Below are positions 17,128-51,039 of a stretch of DNA of 64,000 bases, in pieces (position 1 is the first letter of the stretch; each line of letters starts with the position of its first letter). This DNA comes from Raillietiella orientalis (Eukaryota). The DNA is taken from contig JAYWIR010000018.1 in the NCBI GenBank assembly GCA_036172245.1, positions 1,302,001-1,366,000 of the forward strand, written 5' to 3'. The position numbers and the translations under genes are program-made. The notes beneath the pieces were generated by a model. It worked only from the letters and a program-made list of their open reading frames with translations, ran no database searches and was not told where the DNA came from.

Positions 17128-17263
17128 GACAAACGCTAAGGTGCCAGGAATTCTCATGGTGCGCAGACTCCTGATCTCAGAAGCCTTTTTTTTTTTTTCC
17201 TTCTTCTTCCTTTGCTGTTCTTCCGTTTTTCCTTTTTTTTTCTTTTTTTTTTTTTTTTTTTAC

Positions 17264-17269: not shown

Positions 17270-17310
17270 GAGATGCAAAATCTTGGGTCCTTTGAAGTCC
17301 TTTAGTGCTT

Positions 17311-17929
17311 GGACTGTAGGCTTGGGGCACGGATCTGGAGGAAGCCGAGTGTCCCCGTTGACTGGCCGGAAGTTGACCGTTCGAGGTTCTTCGAGGAACC
17401 AAGGAGGTCCTTCGGGGTTTCGTCTCCGGTTGTGGAAACGGAGCCGCACCGTGAGGTGCCATCGAATACCACGGAACTGGTTGATGACTCTCCAGAGTAT
17501 CAAGAAGCTCGCCGCTCCTTTCCAGGAAGTGCCCTTCGGTGTTCTCTCCAGAGGAGGAAACAGGGAGCGGCTCCCTTGCAGGTTCCCTTCGGAGAAGAAA
17601 TCCACGAACGGTCCCCACAGTCCGAGGGATCTCTCTAGAGAGAACAAGCGAGAGGTTCCCTCCGGGAGTTCCCTCCCAAGCAAGCGTGAGAGGAGCGGAC
17701 TCCTTCCTCCGGAGCCCTTCCCGGATTCGTAGGGCGGTCCCCTCCTGAAGTACCTTCTATAACTTGAAGAAGAGTAAGACGCAACCCTAGGTGGCGTGGG
17801 CAGAGCTGAAGAGCTTCGTGAGTTCCCCGCCAGGAGGCGGACGGTTCTTCAGCACTCCTTTGGGGCCAAAAAAAAAAAGCTGGGAGGAGAACAGCAAAAA
17901 CAGAAAAACCCAAAACGATTCCCATCATC
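17311..17929 (+). mobile_element. SINE-like repeat, copy B (5'-truncated, no tRNA head)
   Basis: Colinear with copy A from CCCCGTTGACTGGCCGGAAG through the A-run to GATTCCCATCATC. Confidence 0.8.
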
Positions 17930-19300
17930 TTATCTTCAGCGTGCTGGAACAGAGGCGCCCCCTCCCACAAGTGGCAGGAGTTGGCATTGCTGGTTTAACA
18001 CCCGGGTGCGCCGAGGCGTTTATTTTAAAACAAACAAACAAACATGTGTAGGGTCATCGCACCTACAACGTCCGAAAGAGTTAGGAACCTGCTGAGTAAC
18101 CGGCACGCAGGCCGGCGAGGTTCGCCTCGGCAACGGAGGAGGAGGGGACAAACAAAAATAAAAATAAAACAAAAAAACAAGATATACAAAAAAGATGGGA
18201 GGGTTAGGGAAGGGATCACATTGCTCTGGAGACCGTCCTCTGAATCTTTTCCAAGATGCCGGAAACTTCCATCCGAGTATGACCCAGATGGGTCATCCAG
18301 CTGTAATCCGCAGGAAGCGCAGGACAAAACGGATGGCGTCCTTCTCATGCCGTCATTCTCCTGCGTAGTCCAGGACTCCATAGTCCCTCGTAGGCAGCAG
18401 CAAAGAGCTGCTGGAGATGTGGCAGACGAAAGGGCATCGCGCAAGAAGAGGCGTTTCATCACGTCCCTGGGATTGTTCGTCGGTGCACCAAGGGCCGTTG
18501 GGCAACGCAACCACAGGGGCTGGAGGGCAACACCATTCACAAGTAGGTGAGTGAGGGATCTTTGTTCTCCACACCTGACACAGTTCGGGTCTACTGCCCC
18601 CCGGGTCCAGTGAGATCTGCGGGCGTTGCTGGGGTGCATGGAGGAATCCCCAACTGGCAAGGTGTTCTCTCAGAGCTGGACCCGGGGGGGGAGCATGGAC
18701 GCTCAGTGTGACAGGTGCGAGAAGGAGACCCTCCCGCTTCTGCTGTTGGATCGTGCTGTCCTCCGACCACTTCGGGGTCTCCTCGCGACGATCCTAGGAG
18801 CCCCGGCGGGCATCCCCAGGGACATTCTGAAACGTCTCTTTGTGTGTGGTGAAGCACCGCCTTCAGCTGCGTCCCTAGCAGTTCTCTGCCATCTCTGCGG
18901 GATCTCGGCGGCCTGGAAGACCAGAGGAAGAGGCCGAAATGGCAGGGACGCCATCCACTGGGCGCGGATCTTCCTATAGACCGCCTCGAGATGGCCCTAC
19001 GTGGGCTCCATGTGGACGGAACTCGCCAGCATCCTGAACAGGATGCAGAGGATGCTGTGGAGCGTACCGTAATCCTTTCTTCGTTCCCCGTGCGAAATTA
19101 CCCTCCCCTATTTTTCTTGTTTCTTTTTTTTTGCTTTTGTTTTCCCCTCCCCCGCCCTGCCGAAGCGGATCTCGCCGGCCTGCGCACCGCTCTTCGGCAG
19201 GTTCATTGCGCGTGGCAGAACCGAGGATTCGACCACACCGATGTGTTCTCATTACGTTATGTAGCAATGTATTCTCATTAAGACCCGGCAATACCGGATG
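17930..19300 (+). mobile_element. 5'-truncated LINE 3' end (host copy; pieces 17930-17993 and 18622-19300)
   Basis: KWQELALL on the left continues as VHGGIP..QCDRCEKETL on the right; the 3' UTR is shared with 45791-46375. Confidence 0.7.
17995..18621 (-). mobile_element. Antisense LINE 3' end nested in the host copy
   Basis: NARRSHWTRGAVDPNCVRCGEQRSLTHLLVNG; minus-strand AATAAA followed by a terminal hairpin; flanked by GGC[A/G]TTGCTGG at 17983-17993 and 18622-18632. Confidence 0.7.
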
Positions 19301-22300
19301 ATAGTCGCATCTTTCCCATCGCTGGAACTTCTCACTTGCCAGTGCGCTCCGTTGCGGGACGGAATGCTGTCGGATTTCACCGGGTGGTTTTTCCCGTGCG
19401 CTGCGAGACTCCATCCCTCGTGCCTTTTCGAAGGGAGGAAGCTAGTCGTCCCACGAGCAGGGCGTCCTCGAACACGCGTTCCCCACGAGCTCCAGAGGGA
19501 AATGCGATCTCTCCCGGGAAACTGGCATCTCCGGCTGCCGGGAGCGCTCGCGGGTCATCTCGGTCACCTCAGCTTTCCTGGAAACTCAATGGACTCCTGG
19601 AGGTCTCGACCCTGGCTTCCGCACACCACGCAAGATGCGCCTGGCGCATTATCCGGACCGCGTTTCCTTATCGGGGAGTTTACGAAACTATGCCCGCCCG
19701 TATTTGCATAACACGTGAGCAGTCGACCTCGAAGAAGAAAGGATGGGAGGGTGCGACGGCGCGAGGGTGTATCAAATTCCATCCCGTTTAATTGACGTAG
19801 TATGTGCACCAAAATGTAGGACATGCCTTCATCTTCGTTCGGCCTCCTGGAGTACACTCCAGAAAGGTCGATGATCGCTCCTTGACCACCAACCTCACGC
19901 ACAGTCAGTCCGGCAAACGAGGTTTCCATACTGTGGGGTGCGATCTTGCTTCAATCCCGTTTCTACTTGCCTGACTGTGTTCTTGTGCTGCATTCGTGTT
20001 TCCCTTTTGGGTTTGCGTGGATGGGCCCCGGATCCCCCTTCCTGACCATTCTGGTCATCCGGAGTGGATTCCGGAAAGTTCCCGAATGCGTCAAGAGAAA
20101 CCCGAAACTCGAATAGTGCAGTCGCATGAAAGAAATTTTCGAGTTTTCGTGCCGTCTCGAGGAAAAGAGCCAGGACGCGGCGTTATGTCTGCACGGATTC
20201 AACCAACGTCTTGTGTTCAGCACTGACTCAGTGATTTCGGAAAACGGTTTTGAAACTATTGTGTTGCAAACGGGAGGGAATTTATCAAACACTGCCAAAC
20301 ATTGCCGATTCGTCCGGGCGAGCTTCAGCTCAACAGGATCTCTTGGAAGAGCGAGCTGCTGCGACCCGGTCCCGAGGCTACGCAGCTTCGTAATGCAGTC
20401 CTGAGTCGGTCTGTAGGACTGCTTGTGCTGCTGCTGCTGCTGCTTGCTGTCGAATACCGATCTCGAATATTTGTCGGACGTCGCATGGAAAAATGATGAC
20501 TCTTCATGGATGATGCCCTCGTATTTTTTAGAGATAGAAAAGGCACACTTGATAATCAGAACGTAGTCAGCTTGGGTTTTCGAAAGTGGGGAACAGATGC
20601 ACAAATGATCACTTTTCATCTCATTGGATAATAATTAGGCTCACGGCAGTTTGTGTTGAAAGCATTCGTCATCTTTCCTTTTTATTCAATAAAAACTGCA
20701 TAAAGTGACATCAAAAAGAGTGCTTATGATCTAATGCTATTGAAGTTTCCAGAAAGATTAGTTGAAACATAAAGAAATAAACTCATTTTTGATAAAACTG
20801 ATGGGTGCTTGTGGTACAAATTTCAAAAATGAGAGCAAATTAGAGAGAATCTTTTGTCTCATGTACCATAGAGGGAGGATTCATTCCAACATATCGACGG
20901 ACATTACAAGACTATCTAATTATCTGTTTTCTTTCACTCAAGATCTTCTGTTAGAAGGGAAAGCTCAAAATGACGACTAAAAATGTCAAATTTGGTGAAA
21001 GTCCGTAGACACTCAAAACTAATAATAATTTTTGCAACAGCATAATTGAATTTCAAAAAGCATTTTGATGAGTGCTCAATTATTTCTGAAAATAATTTTT
21101 ATGAGAGATGAAAGGCATATACGAATTCAATAAAAAGCATCCCTAAATTGAGAGATGATTAGGAAGCAGCTAACTTGAAACGTAGAAATCTTGATCCTCG
21201 CATTCCTTTTTTTTTGTTAATACCATGATGTGACCATATTAATGGAAATGTTGATGAGAGCATCCCATCGACCCTGCCATAGGAAAAGATGATTTTGCTC
21301 TTAACGAAGTGTGGGAACAAATCATCAATGTCGCTCTACTGTAACTGCGGGATATAATCCTTTGTCATGATACTCTGGATTAAAGTTTTGTTTTGCCCTA
21401 AAATGGTTCTTTGTAAGTTCTGTAATTTTCAAGTATTTCTTGTGTATTGTCTTCATCACCAAGGGTTGTCCAGGATATGTTTTCGTTCACTCTAGGATGA
21501 AGTGGTAAATTAGAAAGGTTTCAAAGATTCGAGGTATCGATCACCAGATTCATAAGCTGGTTGTCGTCCTGCTTCCCGTTGTTCCTGCAAGCATATTTGG
21601 TCAGAAGGAGTATCAGAAGCACGAATAGTAGAACCAAATTTGGCCGAAGGATCGTCAAAAGAAATGATCATGAATGAGCTTAAAAGTCCTGCCGTTAAGA
21701 ACCCCTTGTTTCTCAAGCTCTTAAACTAACTTCATGTTGCTACTCCGTTTCTTGCAACTCGCTGCTTTATGAACTTCGTTCCATAACGACTGGAAGGATT
21801 GAGAAAGACATACGTGATAAACAAATACCAACACATCACTTTGTGTTTTTCGAAATTCTACTGAAGCTGAAGCGGACATTTCGCTAAACTGAGCGTTACC
21901 AATTTTTTTTTCCTTTTTTTTTTTTAAATGTAAAGTCCTACTTTTACGGCTTCATGAGAAAGATAGCTTTATCTTTCCAAGTTTCAGCAGTAATGCATTA
22001 TCGCATCGTACCTCATTCCCATAATGATTTCACGTCAGCTGTATGTTGGCTCCGATATTATGCATCTTTATTACAATATATGCTTATTCATTTATGGCCG
22101 TTTCGAAAACCATGAGCTCATCGGATGTGGTTCCGTGAAAGTAATGGCGCAATTCGGCTAACTCGATCCTCGACCCAACGAATATGCACACGAAAAACAC
22201 AAAATTGCGCGTAATTCATATTAAGTGAAACACAGCATAGTTGCAATTTGCTAATCGTCTCTAGGAAAGCACGAGGCTTAAATCTGCTTCGGAACGTTTC

Positions 22301-24239
22301 ATGAAGTGGGCGATGAAACCATTATCGCTGAAAAATCTTCGTCACGATTCGAGATTTCATTTTATTCCTGCGAGTTCAGACAGCTGCGTTAGGGATAAAT
22401 AAAATTGCTCCGAATGTTGTAGTTTGACTCTTTTCAGTTTTGGTCTCTTACTGAACGTAGAACACGGTTTCTAGTAAAATATCGATATTTTCGGCAGAGA
22501 GAGAGAGAAATCTGTGAGATCTACGGAAATCAAAGGAACGCGTGGCTGCTGCGTTTCCAAGATGTGTAGGCTGCACAGGGGAAACGAATGGATCCTTAAG
22601 GAATACGTGCTGCACCCAAACTCGGGGCACTTTCCGAATTGTAAATCCCAAGTTTCGTAATCCTAACGGACGAATGACCACCGTACCGGTCATCATCCGG
22701 CCGTCTTTACAAAGGGAAGAACCAAAGGAAAGAAACGGAAGGGACTCCTGTCGATGTGGAAGCAGATCAATCCTTGGATTCAATAGTGTGAGACACCGTT
22801 CCCGTCTTCGTTTCCGCCGCCGATTTGGGCATCTCCGCAACGAAAGGCCTCGTTTAACGGTGGTGGCGGGAAGGATGCTAACAGCAGAAAAGTGCACAGT
22901 TTTCACAGTGCACACACACGTTTTCCCTCGACACTGTGGACAATTTACAATGCCGAATGAAGTGCACGTCTTTGCACAAGAGTTTCGTGCAACCTGAGAT
23001 TTGCAAAAATTGACCGTGAACGTCCTGGCCAACTCATTTCGATGGAAGCGGGGAAGTCGACTCCATCAGATGTTCCTCTCTCCTTGCAAGAAATCCCGAC
23101 GTTTGGGCGGGGGTTTCTCCGGGGGTGCTGCCGGAGATCCGGGCGGCCTTGTGCCCATCTGCAAGAAAGTCCGAGGTAACACACATGGCTCTCGCACAGC
23201 CTCTCACTTGCCAAGTTCCACACCTTGGATCATTACGTGTAGATAACCTCGTTATTTGTGCCATGACAGATTCGAGAGTGAGCTTAAATAGTTGTTCAAA
23301 AGCTGTTTAAGTTTCTTGCAACTTTTTATTAGCCATCCCTTCAAATAAGCATGTGTTAAACCAATTCAAAACCTAGTAGTTCTCAATGTACACAAATTTA
23401 GCGCTCATTGCGCCATTCAAATTTCATTATAGAAATAATCCAAAACTTTTTTTTCTTTCTTTTCCCTTTTTTTTTTTTTAAAAAAAAAGTGCAATTTGGC
23501 TCGCTTTTTAGGGTACAAAAAGGCACCAGAAGAACTAGTTGACTAGTGCTTTGCCTTACACCACGCTTGTTCACAGGTAGACATTTTGTTTCACCCATGT
23601 TTTATCACGTTAAGGAAACCTTTCAAAAATTATTTAATGCTTACACAAGGATTTGGTTAAGCGAATGACTAAATCAGACTTAGGCGCACTTTTCGGTCTG
23701 GAAAAAAAAAAAAAATACAAAAGTGAAATGTCGATATTCCGTTCAAAGAGTCAGTCATTATGCAACACGCAATAACTTAGGTGGCAGGGCAAAACATCTG
23801 TTAAATTGCCACGTTTATTTCCAAGCATTGATTTGTACTATGAACTGCTATGAAACAAACTCTACTGCCACTTTTGGCACCGTCTCGAACGTTTGTTATT
23901 TGAAATGGATGATACAAACTAGTACATATGCTTTAAGAGTATTCCAAAATTCATGCACAGTATTTTGTAACAAAAGTAATGAAAATAGATTGAAAAATCA
24001 AGGCTTAAATTTACATATTGGTTTTCCTCTTTTTTTTTTTTTTTTTTCCTGTTGCATCCAATACCCTGCACAATTTTATAATGATGTTATTCTTATAAAC
24101 AATCTATGGTGCTGTACCTACAAACTGGTACATTATTACACTTCTCATGTACAACAAACAATAATACATGGGCACATGTGCTATCACTTATTGTGATAAA
24201 TCATGCCCAACTGCAGAAATTATGATACTAATAAAACTA

Positions 24240-27200
24240 TTACACAAACACTGCTTGGTTTGCTTCCGCATTGGAATCTTTTGGGGATAGCACCATTGGC
24301 ACCAAATGGGTCAAATACACCATCTTTTGATGGAAGGCATGAAATGGATCTCTTGCACTGATACCACGTCCACGGTATAATCTGTGAAGACTACATTTTT
24401 TCTTCGGATGGCAAACAGAGCGTTCAAGGGCATCAGTGGCAACACTCAATGAATCTTGCATGTTGACACTGAAATGCTCTGGGTCATTTTGCAGACAAGA
24501 CTGGAGTTCTTGCAAGTGTTTCAATTCTTCCTGCTGCACATCTAGTTTGGATCTATGAGTAACAAGATCTAATTGTAGATCCAACATAGTCTGGGGCTTA
24601 AAAGTATGCTTTGATGGCATTCGCCACCTCTGAGAACGTCGGGGACCAATATTACGTCGCAAAGGGACAGGATGCTCACTCCGATGCAAGGGCATAGCAC
24701 TATCTGACTCACTTCGGTTCAACCTACATAATGGGGACAGGGGACCTGAAGGAGAAAATGTTTGTGAGCGCCGAATACTTGGAAGATGGGAAGAGGATTT
24801 TGGCAGTTGACAAGGTGCTGTACATTCAGTGTTAGTTTCTTTTTCTGCTGTGAATGTGGGTCCTTTTGAGTCACTGGGGCTTCTTTCAACACATGATGTT
24901 TGGGAACACATCACTGCTGACTCTACATTGCTGCATTCCATTCTTGCAGCAGGAACATCAGGTTGTTTAAGATTATACCAATGTAATGAATGCCGCGTCA
25001 TTTGAAGCTCTGATAAGTTGATTTGAACATGTCCCTGAAAAAATCAAAACAATGAGTAATCACAACTTTGAAATAACATGCCAAGAATTCCGACTGGGTT
25101 CTCTCATTGAGGCTGTATAAGCTTAGTGCCAGGATGGATTCTGTATGGACACCATGCAGATTAAACACAAATGTGTCATCGAACACAGGATTTTGACATT
25201 CTGGCACTGCCGCTGTACAGGCTTGTTGCTCAGGTGCCAAACAAACCCTCACATACCTATGTCAAAACAAAATGTGAGCAGCTGGAGATTCATAATAAAG
25301 AATATTTACAGTTTAGTAGAAACAGATGGATCTTGTATCTGCAAATTCTGGCAGCAACGAACACCCACTGCTACTTGCCGTTTACCAGTAAAAAACTGGA
25401 CACTGACCAGCATCTGGGGGATGGCAGTATTGCTGGTGGCCTCAAAGACACCACTGTCATCACTGGCGGTACCCCTAAGTTCCAATTTGCCACCATTGGT
25501 CCCCAGGGATAACTTCCGAAAGCATTCATCCAACCCTGCTTGTGTCTGACATCGAGAAGCTTCATAGGGAGAAATTGGTGGTGATACTGAATCCAGACTA
25601 CTTAGTGGAGATACGGATTGCTCATCATTGGAGGCTATTGCTGTCCATGGTAAAAAGGAATAAGGCAACCCATAAATATCCAGCATGGAATGATTGGGAC
25701 TACTGCTGGTGGAGAGTGATCCTATGCTACTTGAGCTGCTCATGCTAAGTGTTGACTGGCTCAGAGAGCGGAGCTGTTTTTCCAAAACAGTTGTGGACTT
25801 CAGGTGATCATAAAGCTGCGCAATTAATAATTTGCGCTGTTCATCGATCCTTAAACGGTCTGCAATGGCTCTGTTGGAATGATGTGTGGCTAAACTAAGT
25901 TCAGCTTCTAAAGTTTGGATCTTGGCTGCCAACTGCTCCGTTTCTTGGGGTGAAGGAGAACGAGCAGCCATACCACGCAACTCTTTTAGAAGTTTTTCTT
26001 TCTCTCGAATGAGAAGTAATCTATAACACGATCAGTATGAGCTGAAAAGTATGGGAGATCACTTACCGATCTCGATCTGATTCTGCCTGTCCTGGAGCCG
26101 TGCGTTCTTCCAATTCTGTTAGTAACCGTTGAAGACTTTGAATGTATCTCCTCTCTTCATCGTATTGCAATCTCATCTGAGCCATTTGGGCAAGACTAGA
26201 ACGCACTGCTTGGCCAACAATATCTGTTTGTGAACATGCATCACGCAATAACCCATTGCTCTGTTCAGCCTCATGCGCTTGTAATCTCTGTAGCTCATCT
26301 TTCAGTTTCACTAAAGATTTCATTAACTTGAGCTTCTCTTGTTCTCCCTGTTGCAAAGACATTTGGATCTTCTGCATTTCCTTGTGAACAGCTTGAATTT
26401 CCGCAGGGCTATATTGGATGTGGTCCTCACACACCCTATAATTTGTCTGTGTCTATAAATCATGCAAAAGACAGTTGTACCTGGTAAGAGCATCCAATCC
26501 ATGTTTCCTGTATTCCACCTCAGTGTTGTTTTGTTTCATCTCCTGACGTAGTTTTGACACCCTTGCTTTGACTTCCGCCACTTCAGCACGTAATATATCT
26601 GGATCAAAGCGGGTGGAGCCACTGCTGGAGTTGCTGCTCAAACTAATATGGGAACCACCATGTCCACTTCTCTGAAGAACATTTTGCAAATAATTAAATT
26701 CCTCTTGGGCAAGAATTAAACGCTGCTGCTTTATATCTTGCAGCTCTTTCTTTGCCTACAGAAACATTATTAGAATCTAAACAACTGAATCTGCTCACTT
26801 ACAACTAGATCTTCCTGTGCAACAATTAAATAATCCTTCAGCATCTGTTCTTGCTTTCGGCGCCATTCTACTCTGGGATCTTCCTGTTGTGTAGTTCCTA
26901 CACAACATGATTTTAAATAACAATGATAATCCTTAATAACCTGTGTTGTGGTTGATGTAATATCTCCCCAAAGATGGATCATGGATTTCTTCCCATCCAA
27001 TTGGCAGTTCATTTCCAATGCAATCAGCAAAACTAAGAGGTTTCAAGTACCTAAATTTTGAAATGCCATATCAATTTGCGCACTGATCAACAGTCAGCTT
27101 TAAATGTACTATTTCAAAACCACTCACATAAAACACAAATATTTCTACATCAACAACAATGCTAATATTCAATAAAGGTGCAACAACATTCTGAAAAGAA

Positions 27201-30142
27201 AATCACATTAAGTGCATTCAGATGAACACTTTGACTGGAATGCAAAAAAAATGGAAATGCATGGACTTCAACAATCAGCATTTTCAGTTGAGTGTTTTTA
27301 TTGATGAAACAGCAGCTGTAAGCAATACAAGCATCATATTGAATTTACTTCTTAATATACAAATGCCTTAACAATGGATTATTATACACTGAGTATTGCT
27401 GTTAGGCAGATGGAAAACTCTGAAGAAAAATTTAATACTCATAGGGTATTTCTACTATTTTCATTTCTAGTTCCTAGAATTCAAATGATTACTTTGAATT
27501 TCTATTTACAAATAAAGATTTGTTATATGGCACTTTCCCCTTCCTCATGCAAAAAATACATATTTTGGGCTAACTTGGGATCACAATAATGATGGGATCA
27601 ATGTGCATTAGATTTGTGCAGAAAATTTGCAATTGTAAGGAATTTACAAGAACCTTTACATATTCACTCAATCAGCGATGCTATCAGCAATTAATATCAT
27701 GTAATCTGACTAAAATCTTTTAATCTTCACACTTGTGTGTTAGATGTGATGATGTAGTACATTGCTTATTCCTATTGCCAAGACAAAGTATGCTATCAAG
27801 TTTAAGCTATGCAGAGTTCCTTTCCTGAGTAGCAACTTTCACTTTAAAGTTTACAATGTAGGGATATATTGCTAATTTTTTTTAACATGTATATGTTGTC
27901 AAGTCTTATATTTATTTCAAAAATCATTTTAAATGGAAGTTTCTATCAGCATGCAATTTATAACTGCAAATTGGTTACAAAAGCAAAGTGTAACAACAAA
28001 TAAAGGAAACTAAATTTATTTCTACAAATTCTTAGTTCCCAGATGCATGGATCTGTATTTTTTTATAAATACTTTGTTTATCTTTGTAATGAGTATATCA
28101 ATTTGAAAAATTAGAATGTTCTAAAAAGTATAATTTTCTAATGATACTGAGCTATAAATGCAGATGGCAAGTTGCAAAAAACAGGGCAAGAAACAGGCAT
28201 TTCTGAAATGGACAGCAAGAAATTTCCAAACACTTTTCCTGTGGAATTTTCAACTCCAGTAGTACTAGGAATTTTAGGCTTGTTGCCTAAATTCCAACAA
28301 ATTTACATTAGAATAAATTTTAATGGAGATCTTACTTCGGAACAGTTTCCATGGAAACTCATGCAATTCACATATTTAAAGTATGCACATGGTCTAAGAA
28401 CATTCAAGATTAAAAAATCTTAAGAGCCTTAAAGTTTGCTTCACTGAATAAACCACTTACCTGAGAATGAAAGCACCCAGTTATTTATAACATGTATATA
28501 GGATACATACAACAAGTCTGTTCTGGTTAATAAGTAATTAAAGTTCCTATACTCTTCAACTGATTTTCCAAAAATTACAACTTAATACATTGTTTTTTAA
28601 TGAAAATAGATGTGGAGATTGAAAACACAGAATATTAAATTAAAAAAAACTTACAAATTACAGACGATTTGATGATTAAACTCTACATTTTAAAGCTCTT
28701 ATATTTAACAATCTGCTATAGATGCCCACTAACTTCTGGAAAATGGCATTTCATATTTCTACACACTTTCTCAAACTGCTCAAAAGTCTTAATAATAATA
28801 ACAACAATGATAATAAAGGGGGGGAGGGAGACACACAATGATCTCTTAAGAATGCATTCCTGGCATTTTGTTTCTCAAAATTCATGATTAGTAAAGCATA
28901 AAATGAATTTTCTATTTTAAATAACCTATCATGCATCAGTAAACTTTCCACATACGGATTTTTAGATTAATACCTGAATATAGTAAATTCCATTATAATT
29001 ATGAATGCATATTGCATGAGGACTTATAGGCATTTTATGATGCACAGTCATATATATTCATGGTTAGTTTGCTTATATTTGTTTTATCACTATTTATTCT
29101 GCGCAAACACGTTTCCTCTGATTTGGAAATCCTACATTGATAATGAAAATTACATAAACAAAAAAAATACAAGAGGAACTTGGAAATTAAACAGAAATCT
29201 CAATAACGAATTTAAAGAAATTAAAAAAAAACGAAAAGCATAAAGAAAGGCTAAGGAAATATTTAAAAAAATCAAATCATTGCACCTCAAAGTTTAGACG
29301 GAATTATACTCTGATTCCACATAGATGTGCTTTAAGTCTTTTGGTACAAAGCAAACATGACACATAATTTACCTACAGTATTTGAATCGAGAAAAAACTA
29401 CGGTGGCTGAAAATGCTTTGGGACAGGGAAACTTTGCGAAGCCTATAATATTAGATTTATTAATACAGTACACTTGAATATGAATGAGTGTGCAGTTCAT
29501 GTAACTGGGAACTCAGAAACCAAATGCCACAGTTTCCATTAATTTCATTAAAACTAAATGTGCTCACATCAGAGAGCATAATTGGCGTTCCATTTATCTT
29601 TTATTAATATCCACGTAAGAGAAAAGCTGATGGCAATAATAGATTGCAAAAGTTGAAATAACAGTTTAAAATGATGAACCATCGAATTCAAATCTTCATG
29701 TTTTACACGTAAGGTGAGTAACCGTGAATCGTATACGAGACATTCTAATAAAAATATTAGAAACCGAATTCTGGGATGATTGGCTAACAGATTTCCATAA
29801 AATTATAAACGGCTGTTTTATCATTTTTGGAAATCTGTGCACAAGTCATTTAACCACTTCATAATCACCGACAAATACAACTAGTAATTTTCATTATCTT
29901 CACTTTTGTCCAAAATGAAATAATTTTGTGATATGACCTTTTTTCAGTTTTTGAAGAAGTATACGTCCAACTTAACACACTTTGCATAAGACCTAATTAC
30001 ATGATGAAAATTACCTATCTCTTGGGTCTATCCATGTAGTTTGTTTCCTTCGATGATCAATAAAATAAACTTTACCATCCACGTCTGTTCCAGTCCCCCA
30101 TCCAACAGGCAAGGGTATTTCCCCATTTTTATGTTTTGGCAT
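24240..30142 (-). CDS. kibra: Kibra / WWC family Hippo-pathway scaffold (WW-WW, coiled coil, C2), about 885 aa; exons 30142-30015, 27050-26941, 26897-26803, 26755-26481, 26435-26067, 26020-25310, 25256-25082, 25034-24240
   Basis: WW1 [45 protein letters not shown]2 [33 protein letters not shown]; also [59 protein letters not shown]2 domain ending [13 protein letters not shown] and DLQLDL. Intron phases are all consistent; total 2658 nt. Confidence 0.96.
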
Positions 30143-36300: not shown

Positions 36301-39300
36301 TGTTTTATGAATTCAGATTCACTCTTTTGCCATGGTTAATCACGTTCATATACTTTGCCATCAGGCCGAACCATGAAAAAGTGATAGAGACAGACTTGGA
36401 GCTTTAGATGACTGATAAGTACATACGTGAAACAAAATGCAATTTGTGCTTGAAGATCCCATGTTCAAATATGAAAGAGTTTGAAAAGAACTAAGAAAGG
36501 ATCTGTTAATGACACAGTTCTTCATTACAAGCGGTATCAGTGCTCACTTTTTTTTTCCCTTGAACACATCAATATTTGTCGTTTTAGTCAAGTTGTTGAA
36601 AAGTAGTTTTCACTGATATATTTGATACTACCACTACTATATTATTTTGTATCATAAATGTTCCATTATTTGTATGTGATCTAGCAATTTTTATATTTTG
36701 CTATGTTATTGAACAGGATAGAGTTCCTCAAAAAGTAACTTTTGTAATCGGGTTTATGTCCTGGATTTAATGCTGTTCACGGTGCTTTTAATATCACGAC
36801 AGTTAAAAACAATATAATCAGCAAGCTTTTTGTTCGTTTGAGGAATGATATGTAATATGGAAGAATTGTATCCCCCCCCCCCCAAAAAAAAGCTCAGAAT
36901 AACTCCTGTTGGGAATCGTTAATAACATACTCAGATGGTTTGAAATTGAGGGGAAAACGCTACAAAAGTGCCATTTCAAACAGTCTGAAGTCGAAGTTGA
37001 CAAATTAAAATACAGTCATTACTTTTTTTTTTGGATGATGACCATATTTAAGGAATAAGCTATGTATGAATAAACAGAAATTAGTTTAAAGAGAATTTTC
37101 TCATAATATTCCTAGGTATCCCTGAGTTTCTCGAAAATTTGAATGCATTCTCCTTAATGATGCATAACGGTCAGTAGCAAAAAAATTTGTGGATACAAGT
37201 TGAATATGCTTTCACGCACTTTTTTCAAAATCTTTTATACTCCATTTTTCATACTGCATGTGCAAAATGCCGAAATGACGAATAAAGGATAATTACTATT
37301 AATGTTTGGATATCAACAAGGATACCAAAACATGTTTTGGGTTAAAAAAAAAAAAGAGGCTTCTCTCCTTTTCATAATGAATTTTTCTTTGGATAAAATA
37401 AGTATGTTTATAAACCTTGCTATGGTTACATTGTATAAAAATACTTATTTATCGGCGTAAACATTATCATCCTCACTCTGGAACATACCAGAAATAAAGT
37501 AGTGATTATGAGATTGCTACTATAATGAGTTATGAAAGAGGATACATCAATCTTTTCAAATATTGGATTAAAAGATAATAATAAATAATCAATTAATAAA
37601 GAAAAATATATGAAAGTATTACATGAAAGAATACTGAAATAAATAACAAATGCATATATAAAATTGCACGTCATAATCACTAGATTTAACATTCAACAGT
37701 TCAGCTATTTCTTGGTGTCTAACTCTTTACTGAAAAATTAATCACTGCGTTGTATGATGATTTCCAAATATTATAACAGAGTATTTCCTGGGTATAAAAA
37801 TCATCCACCTGAAGAATCTTTCTTTTCAAATAGAAGCCTAAGATTTCAGATATAATACAAACATAATCAATGAAGCGATTTGAAGGAAAAAAAAATGTGC
37901 TGTATTTATGTTTAGCAATGCTACAGCTACTGATGTATAAAACATGTTAGAAAGATTTGATCCAAATGAGAGGATATGCTTGTCAAACACTTAGATCAGT
38001 TTTCAACAGGGGCAAGTCTATCCAGTCATGATTCTGTCATGCAAATGAAATCCATAAGATTTTTGATGTTTTTTAAATGTTTTCAGAATGTCTACCTCTG
38101 AAGTTAGGATCCAATTTCAAATGGGATGTGGGGGGGAAAAACGAGATGTTACGTTTTGTATGAACTTCCTAGAAAACGAATCAGACATCTAACGTAGATT
38201 TGCAGTTTTATTTAGGAACAAATTTTCACAAAATATAATGGCAGTGGATCTCATTTCCGAGACTGAGAAAATTGTAAGTCACATAAAGGAAATGTCATAT
38301 AACGGAGATTGCTGAATGATTAAAACCCATACTAATTATCTACCGATTCATTATTTGGTTCGTTTCTTTTGAGATCTATTAATCCTAGGAATATTAAAAA
38401 GTACTTTTAACGGCTATAGCGGAACACTCTTGGGTTCCGATGTTAGGTTTATGTGCTTATCTGCATTTTGATTACGAGGTTTCGGTCTTTCCACTGTAGC
38501 TCAATCCAAGAACTTTGTTTTGAGCAATGTCTGGGAAGGAAGCCAATCTTATTGAGGATTACGAAATTGATATGTGTAAAAATGTTTTCCGGGAATTTTC
38601 GCTGGTTTCCAAGAACGAAATTCTCACAAGATTCATGAACAGATTTGTTTTTTTTCTCACCAGTTGTGCTCTGTTTGAGAGACGTATATTTTTTTGTTCT
38701 ATCATTTGTTATGAACGCCAAATGAGCATACATCATTTCATTTGCTTGAGTCTGCAGATGTGATGAACAGTTAAACCTTCGTAATGAAGTGATACATTCA
38801 TAATGTTGCAGGCATTTTGGTTGCAAGACAGGCGGATCAAATGTGTATATCATGAGATAGAGTTAGCAGTTAGTAGTGTTGTCCAAATGATATGAATTAG
38901 TTTACTCAGGATACCCTAACTTCTGATTCATTAAATTGCTAATTTTCCAATTTGCTTTTATTATTTGGAAAGATAAGTTTAATATACCAAATTTTAACTG
39001 TTATTGAGTCAAGATTATTTTTATATGCTTTCCAAGAAATATATCGTTGTAGCCATTTTGTTAACAAGTATCTGAGTTATATTCCCTAATATAAAGCACT
39101 CTCTTCGTCTATTTGCAGTGTATTTTATTACGTAAACCCTATTTCATTAGATGGATTTATAAGTTGGTATTGCTTCATACCAAGCGTATTCCACCATATT
39201 ACAATCTTAGCGCGGAATCATGCGTGTCAGAACATTTCCATGAAAAGTAATAAACTCTGAATGCAAAGTATATTTCTTTAGCATGCTTTTCCTTATGATG

Positions 39301-39820
39301 TCATACATTTCATCAAGCCCTATTTTTTTCGTCTGTTCTTTTCAGAGGAATTTATAAAACAATCACGGAGGTTAGGGTGACTCAGATGCTTATCGGATGA
39401 ACTCATCGGAATGTTCGAAAGCATAAACTTTCTGCAGTATGACGCGGATTCATATCTTCGTCTGTTTTTCAACATCTTAAGAGTGATATTGGAATAAAGC
39501 TTTTGGAAATCAAGTATTTTTTTGGACCATGCAATCGTATTCAACTGACGCCATATTTCCAATTTCTAGTATTTGTACACGCTTATGAGATATTCAATAG
39601 CAAAAGTCCCAAGTTCAATTCCTCATTCGGTTACATCGTTGGTTGAGGAATTAGAAGACAATTCGTTTCGTTTTAGAAAATGTCGTTTTAGAAATGCGAG
39701 GAATGGCAACTGGTCAAACAGCCTGAGCGGTTTCAAACGGGCGATTCAAACAAGCGGATCCGAACGAAATATTTCGCATTCCTTTCTTTCCCAGATGAGC
39801 ATGCAGCAGTACTAAAAGAC

Positions 39821-40824
39821 ATGTTAGAACCAATTAAGCATATTTTGGAACAAAAAAAGATAATCTTAGCTAGCGCTTCACCGAGGCGAAAAGCAATTTT
39901 AGATTTAGTGGTAAGATGAATTCGTTGACCATTGACTTGTAAATCTGCGTGTTTGGGCAAATGTAAGAGATGAATCTGGAGGACAACTCTGCGAGTAAAG
40001 CAGATTTTGGGGGTTAAATGATCACTTTGTTAGTGTAACATAAAATTCGCCAACTTTGTTTAGAATGAACTTGATTCGTTTTGATCTTTAAATTAAGTAA
40101 ATGGAGTACTTTTCAACAAGTCTCAATCAATAAGAAAGCAGTTTTTGACTTGAAATAAAATTGAAACCAGTTTCTTCCTATTTGTTTTATATATAACGTA
40201 TTTTGTTCAAGGGATTGAATTTCCATGTAGTGCCAAGCAACTATGAAGAAAATGCAGATCCCTCTGAATTTGCAAACATTTCAGCTTATGTTGAACATTT
40301 GGCTTACAATAAAGCCAAAGATGTGTCAAAGGAAGAAGTAGCAGATTTAGTCGTTGGTGCTGATACCATTGTGTGCAAGGATAGTCACATTTTGGGAAAA
40401 CCCAAGGATCCTGCTGATGCTGTGAACATGTTGCAGAAGTATATTAGGGTGTACCATGTGGGATTGTATGAGTACCCTTCAGCTTGAGTGGAGTTGCCCA
40501 TAAAGTATATACTGGAGTATGTCTCCTGCAGCCCCATGCACTTGAAAAGACGCAGTGTTTCTCTGAAGTAACAGATGTAGTCATGGCACAGCTAACAGGA
40601 AAAGTTATTCGTGCTTATGTGGAAACAGGGGAGCCTCTGTAAGTGACTCTTAGATTCAAACTTATATCTTTGATAGGGATAAAGCTGGAGGCTATGGTAT
40701 CCAAGGAATGGGAGCATCTTTAATATCTTCTATTCATGGAGATTTTTATAATGTTATGGGTTTTCCTCTGTATCGGTTTTGTTCTAAATTGGTATCTTTG
40801 TTGGATTCTTCTGATCCTCCCTAG
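39821..40824 (+). CDS. maf: Maf-family nucleotide pyrophosphatase (dTTP/UTP pyrophosphatase, YhdE type; homologous to the N-terminal domain of ASMTL), about 206 aa; exons 39821-39910, 40212-40438, 40483-40638, 40677-40824
   Basis: Motifs [52 protein letters not shown] and [14 protein letters not shown] introns with compatible phases; total 621 nt. The stop at 40822-40824 leaves no methyltransferase domain. Confidence 0.95.
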
Positions 40825-42939
40825 CACAGATGATCCTAGCAAAGTTTTCTCTGTGTTATCTGGAACGTCTGTTATCTTGAAACATATTTTAGATTCAGAA
40901 AGCATGATGAGATGATGGATATGCCAAATAAACATATCTGGTACATTTCTTAGTGTGTAGTTACAACTGAATACAAATGTTACACCTGGATTCAAAAACT
41001 TGACATTACTACAAATTAAGTAATGGATGACACCTAATGATCATTTCTGTGGTGGGATTGGGATGAAGAATGTCTTGATATATATGAAATCAGATACACA
41101 TGAAATTGTCAGTTTTCTTCACTTTGCCTTTTTATTTGTTTTCTGCTAAGATTAGGGTATGATGAAGGCTAGTGGATTGAGGAATGATATCATCAACTTC
41201 AGGGAACATATTACAATCATTACAGATTTAATCTTAATTATTCAAACTGTTCTCCACTTAAAATGGAAAGCCATACATTAGAAATGTGATCAGAGAAAAT
41301 GCCTTATAAAATGTGTAGATTTGGATATCTTCTGTCCGGAGCTTACCAGATCTTTATAAGGCTGTGTATTTATGCATTCCACTTGAAAACGGTGGGCGTC
41401 AATTAAAATCGGAAAGTGTTGAGTTTTTAGTGTTGCAATGTTATGAAAGATCAAAATTTGTGTTTCTGTCATTTTACAGCAAAGTATTGCATTAAAGTCA
41501 ATTTTTGCATCCAAGCAGCCCCTTGTTTTTCCAGACTTTTTGCTATTTGCGAAATTTCTTCATCCAAAAGAATCTTTTCAATTAAATCCTCAGCAACCAG
41601 TTAGGTGCTTGTATTCATATGTCTCATCTGCAAATAAGGTTTCGTTGATTTTCATTTTTATTTTATTACAAATCTTCACGATCTCGGTGTTTAATGTGAA
41701 GAGAATTGTGTGTTTTCATTTTTCCTGTTATATTTCCTACTGTAAAGCAATGGTGCTGTGAGACTTAAACGGTTTGAGTCCTCTGCATTGATAAGAGAGG
41801 GCGCTGCACGACATCGGAGAGAGATCTGTAGATGCGGGTAGCCGGTAACTCGGACAGAACCTGCTTGCACACTTGTGTGAGCCCCTATGGTTTGGGGTAA
41901 ACAAGGCCTCGAACTTTTCGAGCAGTTTCTTCAGCAAACATCACTTTCCTCGTAACATGGCCAATGAGTCGGGGATCAGTGATTTCAGGATCAGTGACTT
42001 TTCGAGCAATCCCTAGTCGAAATTTGGCAACTGCAAACTGAAGAGAGCTTCACTCATAATTGGTAATCGCATTGCCAATGTCGTATTTTGTTGGAGAAAT
42101 TTAGTTCAGAATAGACAAAAGAGAGCTCAGGGATCAGGCGATTTAGACCTGAAATACGGCAAAGTAAAATTAGGCTAGACGAGATATTGGCACCAGAAGA
42201 AACAGAGCTGTTTTCTGCTTAACGAAATAGAAGGTACCGAAAGGGGAAATGCTCTCATTTCTCCGGATTCTGCATAGTTGGAGAGATGAAAGCAGCAACA
42301 AGTTCTAATGCCGTTGCTGAATGCCAGCGAGGGTTCTCTTTTCGAAGGCTGACCATCGCAGGTAATCGCAAGACGTGCTCTTATCGGGGCTGGAAATGAA
42401 GGTTGAGAAAACTAGGAAGTGAGCAGAAGTAGGATGCAGGGCCTGGAGAAAAAAGAGATGAATCTAAATCAAACGAACAAAAGTTTTATTCTGCTTGTTG
42501 ATGGGGAAATTTGAGAACGTTCGGAAATTGGGAACTGAGAATTTCACAAAGGAAAAATGGAGGACCATTTTTGTTTTGCTTTGAAATTCCTTGAACCAAA
42601 ACTTTTGCAGGCGATGAGATCAGCAAAGTTTGCTGACTCTCAAGGCGTTTTCCCTTTTGAATTCCCGAGATAGTTATTTCTTTAAGTCCTTATATTTTGT
42701 TCCAATAGTGAACTGATGAGAAAATTTCAAGATGCATCTCTTAGTCGTCTCCTGAGACCGGATGGGAAAGTTCCTATTCGATGAAAGTTTCCATTCGATT
42801 CCATGTAGGTCAAACACAACCATCAAACTGCTAGACAGACGGTAGTAAGGGATCCGGGAAGAACTTGTAGGTCTTCCGTCTCCTCAACACTATTCTACAG
42901 CTTCGTGCTTTCGACAGTTTCCTCGAATCACGGCAGGTG

Positions 42940-44125
42940 TGCCCGCATTCGCGGCAGTGCGGCTACGGTCTCCTCCGCGCGCGGTACCAAGCGTTGCGGG
43001 TTCGAATCCCACCCGGGGGAAAGAATCGACACTGGAGAAATGGGTGCGCCGTGAGTTTCGAGTCCTCCCTGCAAAATGGCGTTGGTTGGCCTGTTCGGGT
43101 GCGGCACTGGTGCGTGTTCCCGCTGACCGACAGGGATTAGAAGTTGACTCCTCCAGGGCCCTTCCAGGAATCAAGGAGTCCTTCGGCATTTTCTTCCGAT
43201 TGTGCAAATGGAGCTCTTCCAGAACGGAGAGGTGCATCATGCATTGGCTTCTTCCTAAGTGGCTTTCGAAATTCGAGGTTCCTGCCGAGAGCCGAAGAGA
43301 GGGTGGGTGTATTCACACCAGCGTGGGTACGAGCATCAGCCTGGCCATTTCATCCCAGACATGTGACCGCCGCATGGTGTGTCGACACGGAACGGGGACG
43401 TCATTGCCCCTTCATATGCTTTTTTCAAAAATCTGGCACAGGGTGCGGGAACACGGAAACGTCCGCTCCCCATGGCGGATGCTTCCCGGCCGCCCGAAGA
43501 GAGCGTTCTTTTGTCTTAGTCTGAAGAATCTTCGAGAGCTGCAAGTCGTTACCAGGAATTCTTTTTATTTTTATTTTTTTCTCTATCCGTTTCCACGGAG
43601 AATTCCCCCTCCCCTCCCCTGCAAGATCCACATCTCCGCACACAAGATCCCTCCTTCCGGCTAGCTCTGAGACCCAGGGTGTGGGAACATGGAAACGTCC
43701 TATCGGAAGGAAGAGGAGGGAAGAGGAAGAAGGGGAAACAAGGAGCAGTTTCCTTGTGGATCCCCTCCGAAGCATAAATTCCTACTAGCGGATCCTTTCC
43801 GGGTTCCTTTGGAAAAGAAATATGGAGCGCACCCCTCCGGGGGTCCCTCTGGGAAGAATAAGGAAGAGGTTCCTCCCAACTGTATGGGAAACCGACTCCT
43901 TTCTCCGGAGTCTTCCTGGATTCATAGGGTGATTCCTTCCGGGATAGTCCCTAAATTGAAGAAGTACATGCACCATCGGATGATGTGGACAGTGTTTAAA
44001 GAGCTCTGTGAGTTCCCCCCAAGGGGGCGAACTGTTCTTGAGTGCTTAGCGAACCAAGGAAAAAAAAAAAAAACTTGGAAGGGGAAGCAGTGCAACAGAA
44101 AGGAACCCAAAAGGATTCCGTCATC
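42940..44125 (+). mobile_element. SINE-like repeat, copy C; about 43187-43725 is replaced by an unrelated LINE-like fragment
   Basis: B box GGTTCGAATCC at 42999-43009; head and 3' half are colinear with copy A; ends GGATTCCGTCATC. Confidence 0.75.
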
Positions 44126-46375
44126 GGCAACATCTCCTTTGCCCCAGTGCTGCCCTCTCTAAGGAATGCAGGGGACATTGTAATCCTAGCAAGGTGGGAA
44201 GTGACATGCTGCATGGCCTCAAAGACGAAACTTCTTGGAGGGTGGACAACTCGGGAAGTGACGGACGCTGCGACCCCGAGTGTCCCGCCCCACGGACTTG
44301 TACGCTGAGTAGAGCTGCTCGGCATCCCTCCGTAAAAGATGAAGTGCCTCCCCGGGTGCTGGAACAGTGGTGTCCTCCCCTCAATTGGCAGGAGTCGGCG
44401 TTGCTGGTGTTGCATGGGGGAGTCCCATAAAAAGCACGCCTTCACCGCCGGACACGGGGGAGTTTCCACCCGGTCATGCCGGGGCGTTTATTCCTAAACA
44501 CAGTATATTTGCGGTACTAGGCCCCACTGCGGCCAATAGTTCATGGGGTCTACCGGGAAGCCAGTACGCAAACCGGCTCGACACTCCTCGGCAGCGGAGG
44601 GAGATGGGGGAAAAAACAAAAAGAAAAACAAAGGAAACAAAAAAAAAGAGACACTTTGGAGGGCCCGGAAGGGATCACAATCCGCTGGAGGGAGGGTCCA
44701 TCCTTCCCAGGATGCCCTCGAGGTCCCTCTGCATAGCTCCCAGATGGGACCAGCCGATCGCGATTCGCAGGTAGCGACCCGCGTGTGCGATGAGATCCCT
44801 ATCGCTGCTTCCTCTGTTGGCTGCTCTCCACGCAGCCACAATCCTTCGGAGGCAGCAGAGCGCTGCCAGGGCTGAGGCTGGTTGCAGGGAGTCTCACAAC
44901 GTCTCTGGGAGGACTGCCGACCGGCATCCGGAGGGTCGTAGCAAAACGTTTTCACAAGGGCCGGAGGGCAGCGCAGTCCACGAACAGTTGGGGGCGGGAT
45001 TCCTCCTCCCTGCACACTGCACACTTCTGTCCCACGTTCCCTAACGTCCAGTGGTGGCGGCGCGCGTTGCAGAGAAGACCCCAGTGCAACAATAGCAGCG
45101 CCGCTTCCGGCCACTTGAGGGGGAGGGTGGATGCGTCTCTAAATAACGGGGGCCACTTTAGGTCATCCAGTGGGATGCCCAGCAGCTCGCCCCATCTCTG
45201 TAGTCGCAAAAGAACGCTCGGAGCCGCGGCGTCGGCCAGTTCCCTCATGGTCCAGCCGCTTAACATCTTCTCCCTGCCCGCTGTCCGGCAGGAGACTTGC
45301 CACCTGAGCATTCGCCTGCTGCCGAGCGCCCTTCTCAAAAAGGGCAGCGCCGTGGTCAGTGGGGTCGTCTCCGCCCACGTGCTTCTGGCGGGACACTCGA
45401 GCATCGCCCGCAGCGTGCAGCGTGTGTAGATGCCGGGACGCAGGCGGTTCCAGGATTCACCACTTGACTGATTCAGCTTCGTCCACATGCCAACTGCTTC
45501 TTCCAGCCATGTGCTGGAGTTGGCGGGGCTCCAGACTATCCAGCCATTCTCCTTGGCCAGGGTGGCCATGCGTCCGAGGAGAAGGCTTCATCTTCTTATT
45601 TTCCGGCCGGGGCACAGAAGAAAAGATGAGAGCCCTCCCGCTCTGGATACACGACTGGCGAGGAGGCGGGCCGAAGCGCACCAATAAGTGTTCCAGTACG
45701 TCGCTGCGATGGCCAAGGTTCGCCATCGCAGCTGATTTTCCATCCGCTATAGCGTCAGGGGGCCGAGACCGCCATCCCGACGCGGAGCGCACACAGGGGA
45801 GTGTGGACTCTAAGCGCGACAGATGCAGGAAGAAGGAGCCCCTCACGCACCTGCTGTTGGGCTGTGTTGCCCTGACCCTTTGAGATTGCCTCACGACGAT
45901 CCTAGGAACCCCGTCGGGTGGCCCCAGGGATATTTTCAGACGCCTCTTCGTGCGTTCTGCACTGTCTTTATCCGCGTCCCTGGCAGTTCTCTGCTGCGTT
46001 TGTCCGCGGAATCTTGGCAGCCTAAAACGTGAGAAGAAGAGTCAAGAATGGGAGGGACGCCATCCACTGGGCAATCTCAAGGCATCCACTGCCTCGAGAT
46101 GGCCCCACCTGGACTCACCTGGGGGAGACACGGACAGAACTTAGCCTTCTGAGTAGGATGCAGAAGACACAGGGTAGCGTACTATGATCCCTTCCTCGGT
46201 TCCCCCCTCTTCATCTATAGATTACCCTCCCTGTTTTGCTGAAGCAACTGAGGCGAACCTCGCCGGTCTGCGCACCGGTCCTCAGCAGGTTCATCGTGCG
46301 TGGCAGAAGCAACGGTTCTACCACGACATGTATTTTTATTACTCTAAGTAATAAATGCCCCGGCATAGCCGGTGA
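44126..46375 (+). mobile_element. 5'-truncated LINE 3' end (host copy; pieces 44126-44463 and 45791-46375)
   Basis: NWQESALLVLHGGVP..TRGS continues as TQGSVDSKRDRCRKKEPLTHLLLGC; AATAAA at 46350-46355 is followed by the hairpin CCGGC-ATA-GCCGG. Confidence 0.7.
44464..45790 (-). mobile_element. Antisense LINE 3' portion (about 1.3 kb) nested in the host copy
   Basis: WPEAALLLLHWGLLCNARRHHW..KCAVCREEESRPQLFVDC; flanked by ACAC[G/A]GGGGAGT at 44452-44463 and 45791-45802. Confidence 0.72.
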
Positions 46376-50890: not shown

Positions 50891-51039
50891 GAATCAAGCA
50901 GTGGGTAGTTGTGCAAAGGAGCGGACCCTCCCCTTCGGGGGCAACCCTCCGCGTCTCACTGATGGAGTAGGTGTGTCGCCACCTCTCCAGAGAGTGCAGA
51001 GAAGCGAGCTGATCCCTTCGGGGAAGCAGAACCTCTGGA

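What the first reader, a model, noticed from the sequence alone, without database searches (positions are those of the whole stretch)
17311..46375. Recurrent SINE-LINE chimera: the same SINE 3' junction is fused to LINE 3' ends truncated at different points
Seen: similarity among SINE-like copies A, B and C continues about 45 nt past the A-run and stops at GATT[G/C]C[A/G]TCA[C/T]C (6767, 17929, 44125). In B and C this point is followed directly by a same-strand, 5'-truncated copy of one LINE family, entered at different LINE positions (about 55 nt versus about 270 nt before the W-Q-E-x-A-L-L motif). Established: U6/L1 chimeric retrogenes have this geometry (fixed Pol III RNA 3' end, variable L1 breakpoint), and Tx1-clade LINEs are known to target specific multicopy sequences. 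Inference: either a chimera-forming system involving a long Pol III RNA (template switching or RNA ligation), or a LINE that targets this SINE. Only two cases are visible here.
Basis: partly seen in the sequence, partly recalled or inferred. Interest (0 to 1): 0.7.

Follow-up and report, generated by a model that had tools for sequence, protein, structure and literature searches.

The report
LINE that lands inside one SINE
In this arthropod genome one jumping-gene family (a LINE) mostly landed at the same six letters near the end of another repeat (a SINE), so the fused look comes from aimed insertion into DNA and not from two RNAs being joined, a known habit with an unusual target.

Summary
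The two junctions are real (SINE to 17929 and 44125, then a same-strand L1/Tx1-like LINE entered 219 nt apart), but they are not U6/L1-type chimeras. The full SINE runs about 50 nt past CATCATC into a hairpin, T-run and A-tail. Of 28 LINE copies picked genome-wide by their 3' end alone, 21 start at this SINE point, although at most about 3% of ATCAYC sites are SINE junctions. The LINE end is followed by ATCAYC again in 40 of 46 copies, then by the SINE tail (18) or other DNA (28), which in 14 cases is duplicated at the 5' junction. No such duplication precedes the SINE head (0 of 17). So the LINE targets the SINE, with a duplication around the LINE only. B and C each also carry an antisense LINE at recurrent sites. 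Unexplained: half of the SINE junctions (10 of 20) lack both tail and LINE, and one such copy was inserted tail-less without duplication. The youngest SINEs read ATCGTC and showed no LINE (escape or LINE extinction). The scan noted SINE-targeting and antisense nesting before on other DNA of this genome, from two or three cases each.

The parts
6029..6830 (+). SINE copy A, complete and unoccupied: head with B-box-like motif, body, target hexamer ATCACC ending at 6767, terminal hairpin 6768-6814, T-run and A-run
   Evidence: SINE model 7-828, E 2e-168; tail model E 1e-8
17308..17929 (+). SINE copy B, 5' part missing, ends at target hexamer ATCATC
   Evidence: SINE model 154-829
17930..17993 (+). 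Targeting LINE in B, first piece (ORF2 C-terminal region, WQELALL); entry 2149 on the reference copy
   Evidence: row L160
17994..18622 (-). Antisense LINE (family mB) nested in the B LINE; 10-bp duplication at 17984-17993 and 18623-18632
   Evidence: same site in L175, L178, L179 and L099
18623..19303 (+). Targeting LINE in B, second piece: zinc-finger region, 3' UTR and 3' end; no SINE tail follows
   Evidence: LINE 3'-end model E 2e-40
42937..44125 (+). SINE copy C with head, about 500 nt of other sequence at 43226-43728, ends at hexamer GTCATC
   Evidence: SINE model 8-321, 458-510, 473-829
44126..44463 (+). Targeting LINE in C, first piece; entry 1930 on the reference copy
   Evidence: row L031
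44464..45791 (-). Antisense LINE (family mC) nested in the C LINE; 11-bp duplication at 44453-44463 and 45792-45802
   Evidence: weak zf-RVT match E 0.07; same site in 7 of 19 other copies and L043
45792..46377 (+). Targeting LINE in C, second piece to the 3' end; followed by AGCATT (worn hexamer), no SINE tail
   Evidence: LINE 3'-end model E 1e-34
63465..64000 (-). SINE copy F: reaches the junction at 63505, repeats it once (63469), keeps 4 nt of tail, then unrelated DNA; a tail-less copy without LINE
51022..51562 (-). SINE copy D, breaks off before the junction
57485..58003 (+). SINE copy E, breaks off before the junction

Best explanation
An APE-type LINE of the L1/Tx1 group inserted by target-primed reverse transcription at one DNA site, ATCAYC, about 50 nt inside the 3' end of an 800-nt SINE, always in the SINE's direction. 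Shown: the fixed site and direction, many different 5' truncation points, the hexamer repeated after the LINE, duplications of 6 to about 17 bp around the LINE only, the SINE tail resuming, and repeat use of the regenerated site (tandem LINEs in L095, L106). Inferred: the endonuclease nicks the bottom strand at the left edge of the hexamer; the LINE RNA ends in ATC units that pair with the nicked strand (one extra ATC at the 3' junction in L093, L099, L119); the top strand is cut 6-17 nt to the right; recognition uses SINE sequence upstream of the hexamer and not the tail, because tail-less SINEs are hit as readily as tailed ones. The gain for the LINE would be thousands of harmless landing sites and perhaps read-through from the SINE promoter (inference). 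B and C are two such insertions into SINE copies that now lack the tail, each later hit by an antisense relative with its own preferred site.
For: LINE copies picked by 3' end only: 21 of 28 begin at the SINE junction (20 by script; L103 through L181); 10 of 28 are followed by the tail (7 by model, 3 by eye). Background: 378 ATCAYC sites in 400 kb of evenly spaced stretches, 6 SINE junctions by script, 10 taken as upper figure; binomial p 7e-28. Picked by C's LINE piece: 25 of 29 (20 by script, 5 by eye). Of 46 copies with both junctions, 40 have an ATCAYC-like hexamer right after the LINE, 18 then the tail; of the 28 without tail, 14 share 6-12 further bases at both junctions against 0.9 in 5000 shuffles, maximum 5. 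The C/T variant of the hexamer agrees at both junctions in 18 of 21 (p 0.003). No duplication before SINE heads, 0 of 17, while the A-tail duplication of tailed SINEs is seen in 6 of 20 against 1.4 shuffled. APE motifs in the longest copy; PF03372 and L1-endonuclease matches and a CCHC ORF1 in young relatives.
Against: B and C themselves show no tail and no clear long duplication. 14 of 28 non-tail copies show no extra duplication. Targeting is not absolute: L093 has a duplication and no SINE, and 4 of 29 copies (L041-L043, L060) show no SINE at the 5' end. Loci are the best-scoring hits, not a random draw. Truncation points pile up (20 of 29 lie 700-999 nt from the 3' end), and three near-identical pairs (L053/L054, L035/L050, L037/L040) show that some copies are not independent. 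Cleavage was not tested and no intact or young copy of this very family was found.
Confidence: 0.88

Rival explanations
1. U6/L1-type chimeras: a SINE RNA ending at CATCATC is ligated or template-switched onto LINE RNA and the unit inserts in one step.
For: Fixed SINE point with variable LINE entry; half of SINE junctions lack the tail (10 of 20), so a cDNA or RNA end at this point exists; B, C and 14 of 28 non-tail copies lack a long duplication round the LINE.
Against: Such chimeras are flanked as a whole by 6-19 bp duplications (PMC6789731, passage); here 0 of 17 heads have one, the tail resumes in 18 of 46, and non-SINE flank is duplicated between SINE and LINE in 14 of 28, which a one-step chimera cannot make.
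Confidence: 0.05
2. A few SINE-LINE-tail composites formed once and were amplified as units (by retroposition or gene conversion).
For: Clustered entry points (near 1930, 2065, 2170); L053/L054 are 99% alike from mid-SINE to mid-tail with different flanks.
Against: Copies with the same entry point carry different junction bases that match their own 3' flank (L039, L051, L098, L209); entries span 781 to 2724 and one lies in the endonuclease region.
Confidence: 0.05
3. B and C are one old segmental duplication, or chance neighbours.
For: Same order of parts in both.
Against: Flanks unrelated, different entry points, different nested families about 60% alike at different sites, genome-wide enrichment.
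Confidence: 0.01

Closest known systems
Tx1-clade LINEs that target other transposons: Tx1L in Tx1D (Xenopus), Tx1-Mar in Mariner-N4_AMi, Tx1-9_AMi in Harbinger elements, Tx1-8_Crp and Tx1-4_AMi in LTR elements (PMC4494074; passages and part 3 of 5 read)
   Same: APE-type LINE, fixed place and direction inside a multicopy mobile element, independent 5'-truncated copies, different families using different sites.
   Different: The target is a SINE, at one nucleotide beside its terminal hairpin; the host is an arthropod; clade membership by RT tree was not tested.
U6/L1 chimeric retrogenes (PMC6789731, passages; PMC11838501, passages)
   Same: Fixed point in a Pol III-type RNA joined to variably truncated LINE, same direction.
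   Different: There the small RNA is complete to its U-run and one duplication encloses the unit; here the junction is internal, the tail resumes and the duplication encloses the LINE only.
Tailless retropseudogenes (PMC5322556, passages) and self-primed U3 pseudogenes (seen only as one sentence and a reference title in PMC1687206)
   Same: 3'-truncated retrocopies with a preferred end at a structural boundary of the RNA, matching the tail-less SINE copies here.
   Different: Those are defined with 8-35 nt duplications and are rare by-products; here none was seen (0 of 17), one copy shows a 5-nt loss of target, and they make up 23-50% of junction copies.
R1 elements of Drosophila (PMC2718515, passages)
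   Same: APE-type site-specific insertion with duplications of about 14 bp (up to 17) and variable 5' junctions.
   Different: R1 targets 28S rDNA and is another clade.
Zepp LINEs of green algae (PMC3446292, passages; lead from earlier scan notes)
   Same: LINEs nested in LINEs, as for the antisense inserts in B and C.
   Different: Zepp forms one cluster per chromosome; here related families use fixed antisense sites in dispersed copies too.

Membership tests
L1/Tx1-group LINE | APE endonuclease at the start of ORF2 | tested here: met
   GDFN- and SIDH-like motifs in L081 right after the SINE junction (motif names recalled); PF03372 E 5e-13 and L1 endonuclease structures as best hits for young relative L185
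L1/Tx1-group LINE | Reverse transcriptase and C-terminal zinc finger in ORF2 | tested here: met
   RT motifs in L081; RVT_1 E 6e-4 in relative L197, zf-RVT E 0.07 in the nested C copy, both below Pfam cut-offs, 0 families for L183; relatives 72-75% alike in DNA to the reference copy
Tx1 clade | ORF1 with CCHC zinc knuckles (recalled) | tested here: inconclusive
   zf-CCHC E 2e-4 in relative L197; ORF1 of the targeting family itself was not found
Tx1 clade | RT phylogeny with Tx1L, Keno, Kibi, Koshi | not testable with these tools
   No named Tx1 reference came; best named hit a frog RT-domain protein at 31%
Target-specific LINE (criterion of PMC4494074) | One kind of sequence in more than 20% of flanks | tested here: met
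   21 of 28
U6/L1-type chimera | One duplication around small RNA plus LINE | tested here: not met
   0 of 17 heads; duplication round the LINE only in 14 of 28
U6/L1-type chimera | Junction at the RNA's natural 3' end (U-run) | tested here: not met
   Junction lies about 45 nt before the T-run
SINE | Dispersed non-coding retroposon with A-tail and target duplication | tested here: met
   11-14 bp duplications round L215, L216, L080; 6 of 20 against 1.4 shuffled; 2.7% of 400 kb
tRNA-derived SINE | tRNA-related head with Pol III boxes | tested here: inconclusive
   B-box-like GGTTCGAATCC conserved (consensus recalled); ARAGORN 0 genes; no tRNA match in Rfam up to E 5
Tailless retropseudogenes | Preferred 3' end at an RNA structure boundary | tested here: met
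   22 older and 17 young copies keep 0-5 tail bases; the end is the foot of a 16-pair hairpin, 87% of cells paired, but covariation no higher than shuffled
Tailless retropseudogenes | Flanked by a target duplication | tested here: not met
   0 of 17 (L010 has a borderline 7-8 nt match); 5-nt loss in L275/L279

The most novel reading that the evidence does not exclude
The foot of the SINE's terminal hairpin is both the point where SINE reverse transcription often starts (fold-back self-priming or hairpin skipping, giving tail-less copies without duplication) and the landing site of a dedicated LINE parasite, and the youngest SINE lineage escaped that LINE by changing ATCATC to ATCGTC: an arms race between a SINE and a LINE that feeds on it, inside a set of related LINEs that target one another.
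Probability: 0.2. Interest if true: 0.75.

Novelty: new variant of a known kind. Interest (0 to 1): 0.5.

Why it matters
Target-specific Tx1-like LINEs are known for DNA transposons, LTR elements, small-RNA genes and microsatellites; a family aimed at one nucleotide of a SINE was not found in the searches made (Repbase and subscription papers not covered). This genome holds related families with different short targets, young intact relatives and many dated insertions, which makes it a natural series for asking how APE endonucleases and RNA 3' ends change target. The frequent tail-less SINE copies without duplication point to a second, poorly explained route of SINE copying.

Tried and rejected
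Segmental duplication of B and C: rejected. Twin-priming inversion for the minus-strand pieces: rejected, they are separate families about 60% alike with their own 3' ends and duplications. Tail-less SINEs as a separate subfamily: rejected, tail state needs 21 changes on a 70-row tree against 21.2 shuffled, and both states occur in one 100/100 young clade; the tree is poorly resolved, and rows with badly placed junctions or under 300 nt were left out. Tail-less SINEs as hosts of other inserts with the tail further on: not supported; of 23 exact tail matches 20 follow the SINE junction, 2 the LINE end, 1 is cut inside the tail. Tail-less SINEs as ordinary target-primed copies: no duplication. 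Tail loss by later deletion: A-richness before heads did not decide (p 0.06); the one copy with readable flanks argues against a large deletion but cannot exclude an exact 80-nt one. Lower tail loss in ATCGTC than in ATCAYC copies with the same upstream pattern: not shown (19 of 82 against 4 of 13 by first 12 letters). Heads of L205 and L214 were not found and the extra downstream stretches held no tail or LINE end. Single-sequence folds of the tail were weak (z -0.15 to -2.1); the automatic consensus fold picked a wrong helix and my first hand-written structure was out of register. Sequencing runs: none was listed. Rfam: nothing. Scan notes by sequence, by words and near this place: nothing.
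Full report
Setting. The window is G000:C18:1302001-1366000 of a 210-Mb assembly. A host gene matches arthropod Kibra proteins at about 50% identity, with no close relative, so the host is probably an arthropod. All genome counts below come from best-scoring hits, exact patterns or 40 evenly spaced 10-kb stretches, not from a full annotation.

Observation. Six copies of one SINE-like repeat lie in the window. A, B, C and F reach the motif GATTYCCRTCAYC and stop being alike there. In B and C a plus-strand LINE piece follows directly; the WQE motif begins 43 and 261 nt after the junction. The flanks of B and C are unrelated. Copy A goes on for about 60 nt into a hairpin, a T-run and an A-run, and so do other copies; complete young copies have 11-14 bp duplications outside that tail. 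The junction is therefore inside the SINE. And the LINE in both B and C is split by an antisense LINE of a related family, with 10- and 11-bp duplications; the pieces on either side are continuous in protein sequence.

The LINE. The longest copy found (L081) starts right after the SINE junction in the endonuclease region and runs through RT and the zinc finger. Young relatives with open frames, 72-75% alike in DNA, give PF03372, L1 endonuclease structures as best hits and a CCHC knuckle in ORF1. That places it in the L1/Tx1 group; the clade could not be fixed by a tree. Copies of the targeting family are about 75-86% alike and broken; no young copy was seen.

Test from the LINE side. A search with the last 166 nt of the LINE returned 30 loci of 40 scored matches. 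Leaving out the query and its 97% twin, 21 of 28 begin at the same-strand SINE junction (20 by script, one through an overlapping locus). Ten of 28 are followed by the SINE tail (7 by model, 3 by eye), three of them with no SINE in view upstream. L093 has a 12-bp duplication and no SINE; L101 follows a broken SINE; the 5' ends of L116 and L117 were not placed. In 400 kb there are 378 ATCAYC sites and 6 SINE junctions by script (10 taken as upper figure), so a six-letter preference alone gives at most about 3% (p 7e-28). With C's first LINE piece as query, 25 of 29 have the junction (20 by script, 5 by eye) and 4 do not. From the SINE side, 5 of 20 exact junction matches carry the LINE, 5 the tail and 10 neither.

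Where the duplication lies. Among 46 copies with both junctions, 40 have an ATCAYC-like hexamer right after the LINE's last bases. In 18 the tail follows. In 28 other DNA follows, and in 14 of these its first 6-12 bases also stand between the SINE hexamer and the LINE, against 0.9 on average and 5 at most in 5000 shuffles. The C/T variant of the hexamer agrees on both sides in 18 of 21 (p 0.003). No such duplication stands before the SINE head in 17 copies without tail, while the A-tail duplication of tailed SINEs is still seen in 6 of 20. U6/L1 chimeras are enclosed as a whole by one duplication (PMC6789731, passage). The pattern here is that of site-specific insertion into DNA. B and C belong to the group with no tail and no long duplication left.

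How it most likely works. Shown: fixed site, fixed direction, scattered truncation points (781 to 2724 on the reference copy), duplications of 6 to about 17 bp, and reuse of the regenerated site by a second LINE (L095, L106). Inferred from general knowledge of target-primed reverse transcription: a bottom-strand nick at the left edge of ATCAYC, pairing with ATC units at the RNA's end (L093, L099 and L119 have one more ATC at the 3' junction), and a top-strand cut 6-17 nt to the right, as for R1 (PMC2718515, passages). Since tail-less SINEs are used as readily as tailed ones, the extra specificity should come from SINE sequence upstream of the hexamer. None of this was tested biochemically.

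Limits on independence. L053/L054 are 99% alike from mid-SINE to mid-tail with different flanks, L035/L050 97-98% over the LINE, L037/L040 99%; gene conversion between neighbours is the simplest reading. Truncation points pile up 700-999 nt from the 3' end (20 of 29), at C-rich runs by eye, yet copies with the same entry carry different junction bases matching their own flanks, so they are separate events.

Nested relatives. Family mC lies antisense at one homologous LINE site in 7 of 19 other copies, family mB at B's site in 3 of 19; the rest lie in SINEs or unrelated DNA that shares a short family-specific motif. Six of 15 young relatives carry antisense inserts at one point between endonuclease and RT. 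Antisense LINEs also recur near SINE model position 180 (L055, L063, L130, L164). Earlier scan notes describe the same habits on other DNA of this genome; my reading was written down before I saw them.

The unexplained part. Many SINE copies run from the hexamer, plus 0-5 tail bases, straight into unrelated DNA. They are not a subfamily and no orphan tails match them. The end point is the foot of a 16-pair hairpin (87% of cells paired, covariation not above shuffles). One young copy with intact head sits inside an older LINE whose two sides are continuous but for 5 lost bases (5 of 6 alignments, two of them one locus), at a site unlike ATCAYC. This favours insertion as a tail-less cDNA. I put self-primed or hairpin-skipping reverse transcription at about 0.45, later deletion at 0.25 and other routes at 0.3. 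Tailless retropseudogenes are the nearest known class but carry duplications (PMC5322556, passages). The youngest SINE lineage reads ATCGTC: of 82 exact matches 63 begin with the tail, and none of 17 distinct others examined is followed by the same-strand LINE (only 12 letters were seen for the tailed ones, and the pattern drops about a quarter of non-tail matches). Against 5 of 20 in ATCAYC copies this is p 2e-4, but age confounds it: the LINE may simply have died first.

Comparison and verdict. It works like the Tx1 families that target other transposons (PMC4494074; passages and part 3 of 5 read, supplements not seen and they may list further targets) and passes that paper's 20% criterion. 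Five paper searches showed no family aimed at a SINE; Repbase and subscription journals were not covered. Verdict: real, targeted insertion and not chimera formation; a new variant of a known kind; interest 0.5.

Noticed in passing
L053:497-2493 and L054 (C24, 57 kb apart, inverted); L035/L050; L037/L040: Near-identical tracts (97-99%) between neighbouring copies of an otherwise 75-80% alike family; in L053/L054 the tract runs from mid-SINE through the LINE to mid-tail with different flanks, as if a LINE insertion was copied between SINEs by gene conversion.
   Followed up: partly
LINE reference positions about 1930, 2065, 2170 (L081-based): 5' truncations pile up 700-999 nt from the 3' end (20 of 29), by eye just before C-rich runs; cause unknown.
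   Followed up: partly
L185-L199 (many near contig ends or on small contigs): Young, ORF-intact relatives with APE domain and CCHC ORF1, nested in each other; six have antisense inserts at one point between endonuclease and RT.
   Followed up: partly
SINE model position about 175-200 (L055, L063, L130, L164): A second recurrent site in the same SINE, used antisense by other LINE families.
   Followed up: no
L163 and L173, 3' flanks: Family mB sits twice at the same point of another, unnamed repeat.
   Followed up: no
L105:138-228 and 1664-1760: About 70-100 nt duplicated at 78% identity on both sides of a SINE-plus-LINE unit.
   Followed up: no
G000 C26:2643835, 2672089, 2710005; L078, L029, L030: SINE tails in which the hairpin has collapsed or lost its first bases while the A-run remains.
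   Followed up: no
window 63469-63505: Copy F repeats its last 36 nt including the target motif before breaking off.
   Followed up: no
window 43226-43728: About 500 nt of unrelated sequence inside SINE C.
   Followed up: no
window 3300-7916 (+), 16300-17130 (+), 24240-26031 (-): Host gene pieces: FGF-like and PDGF/VEGF-like exons by eye (labels recalled) and Kibra; SINE A lies between FGF-like exons and B just after the PDGF/VEGF-like gene's poly(A) signal.
   Followed up: partly
window 60803-61138 and 63335-63374: Two short inverted repeats.
   Followed up: no
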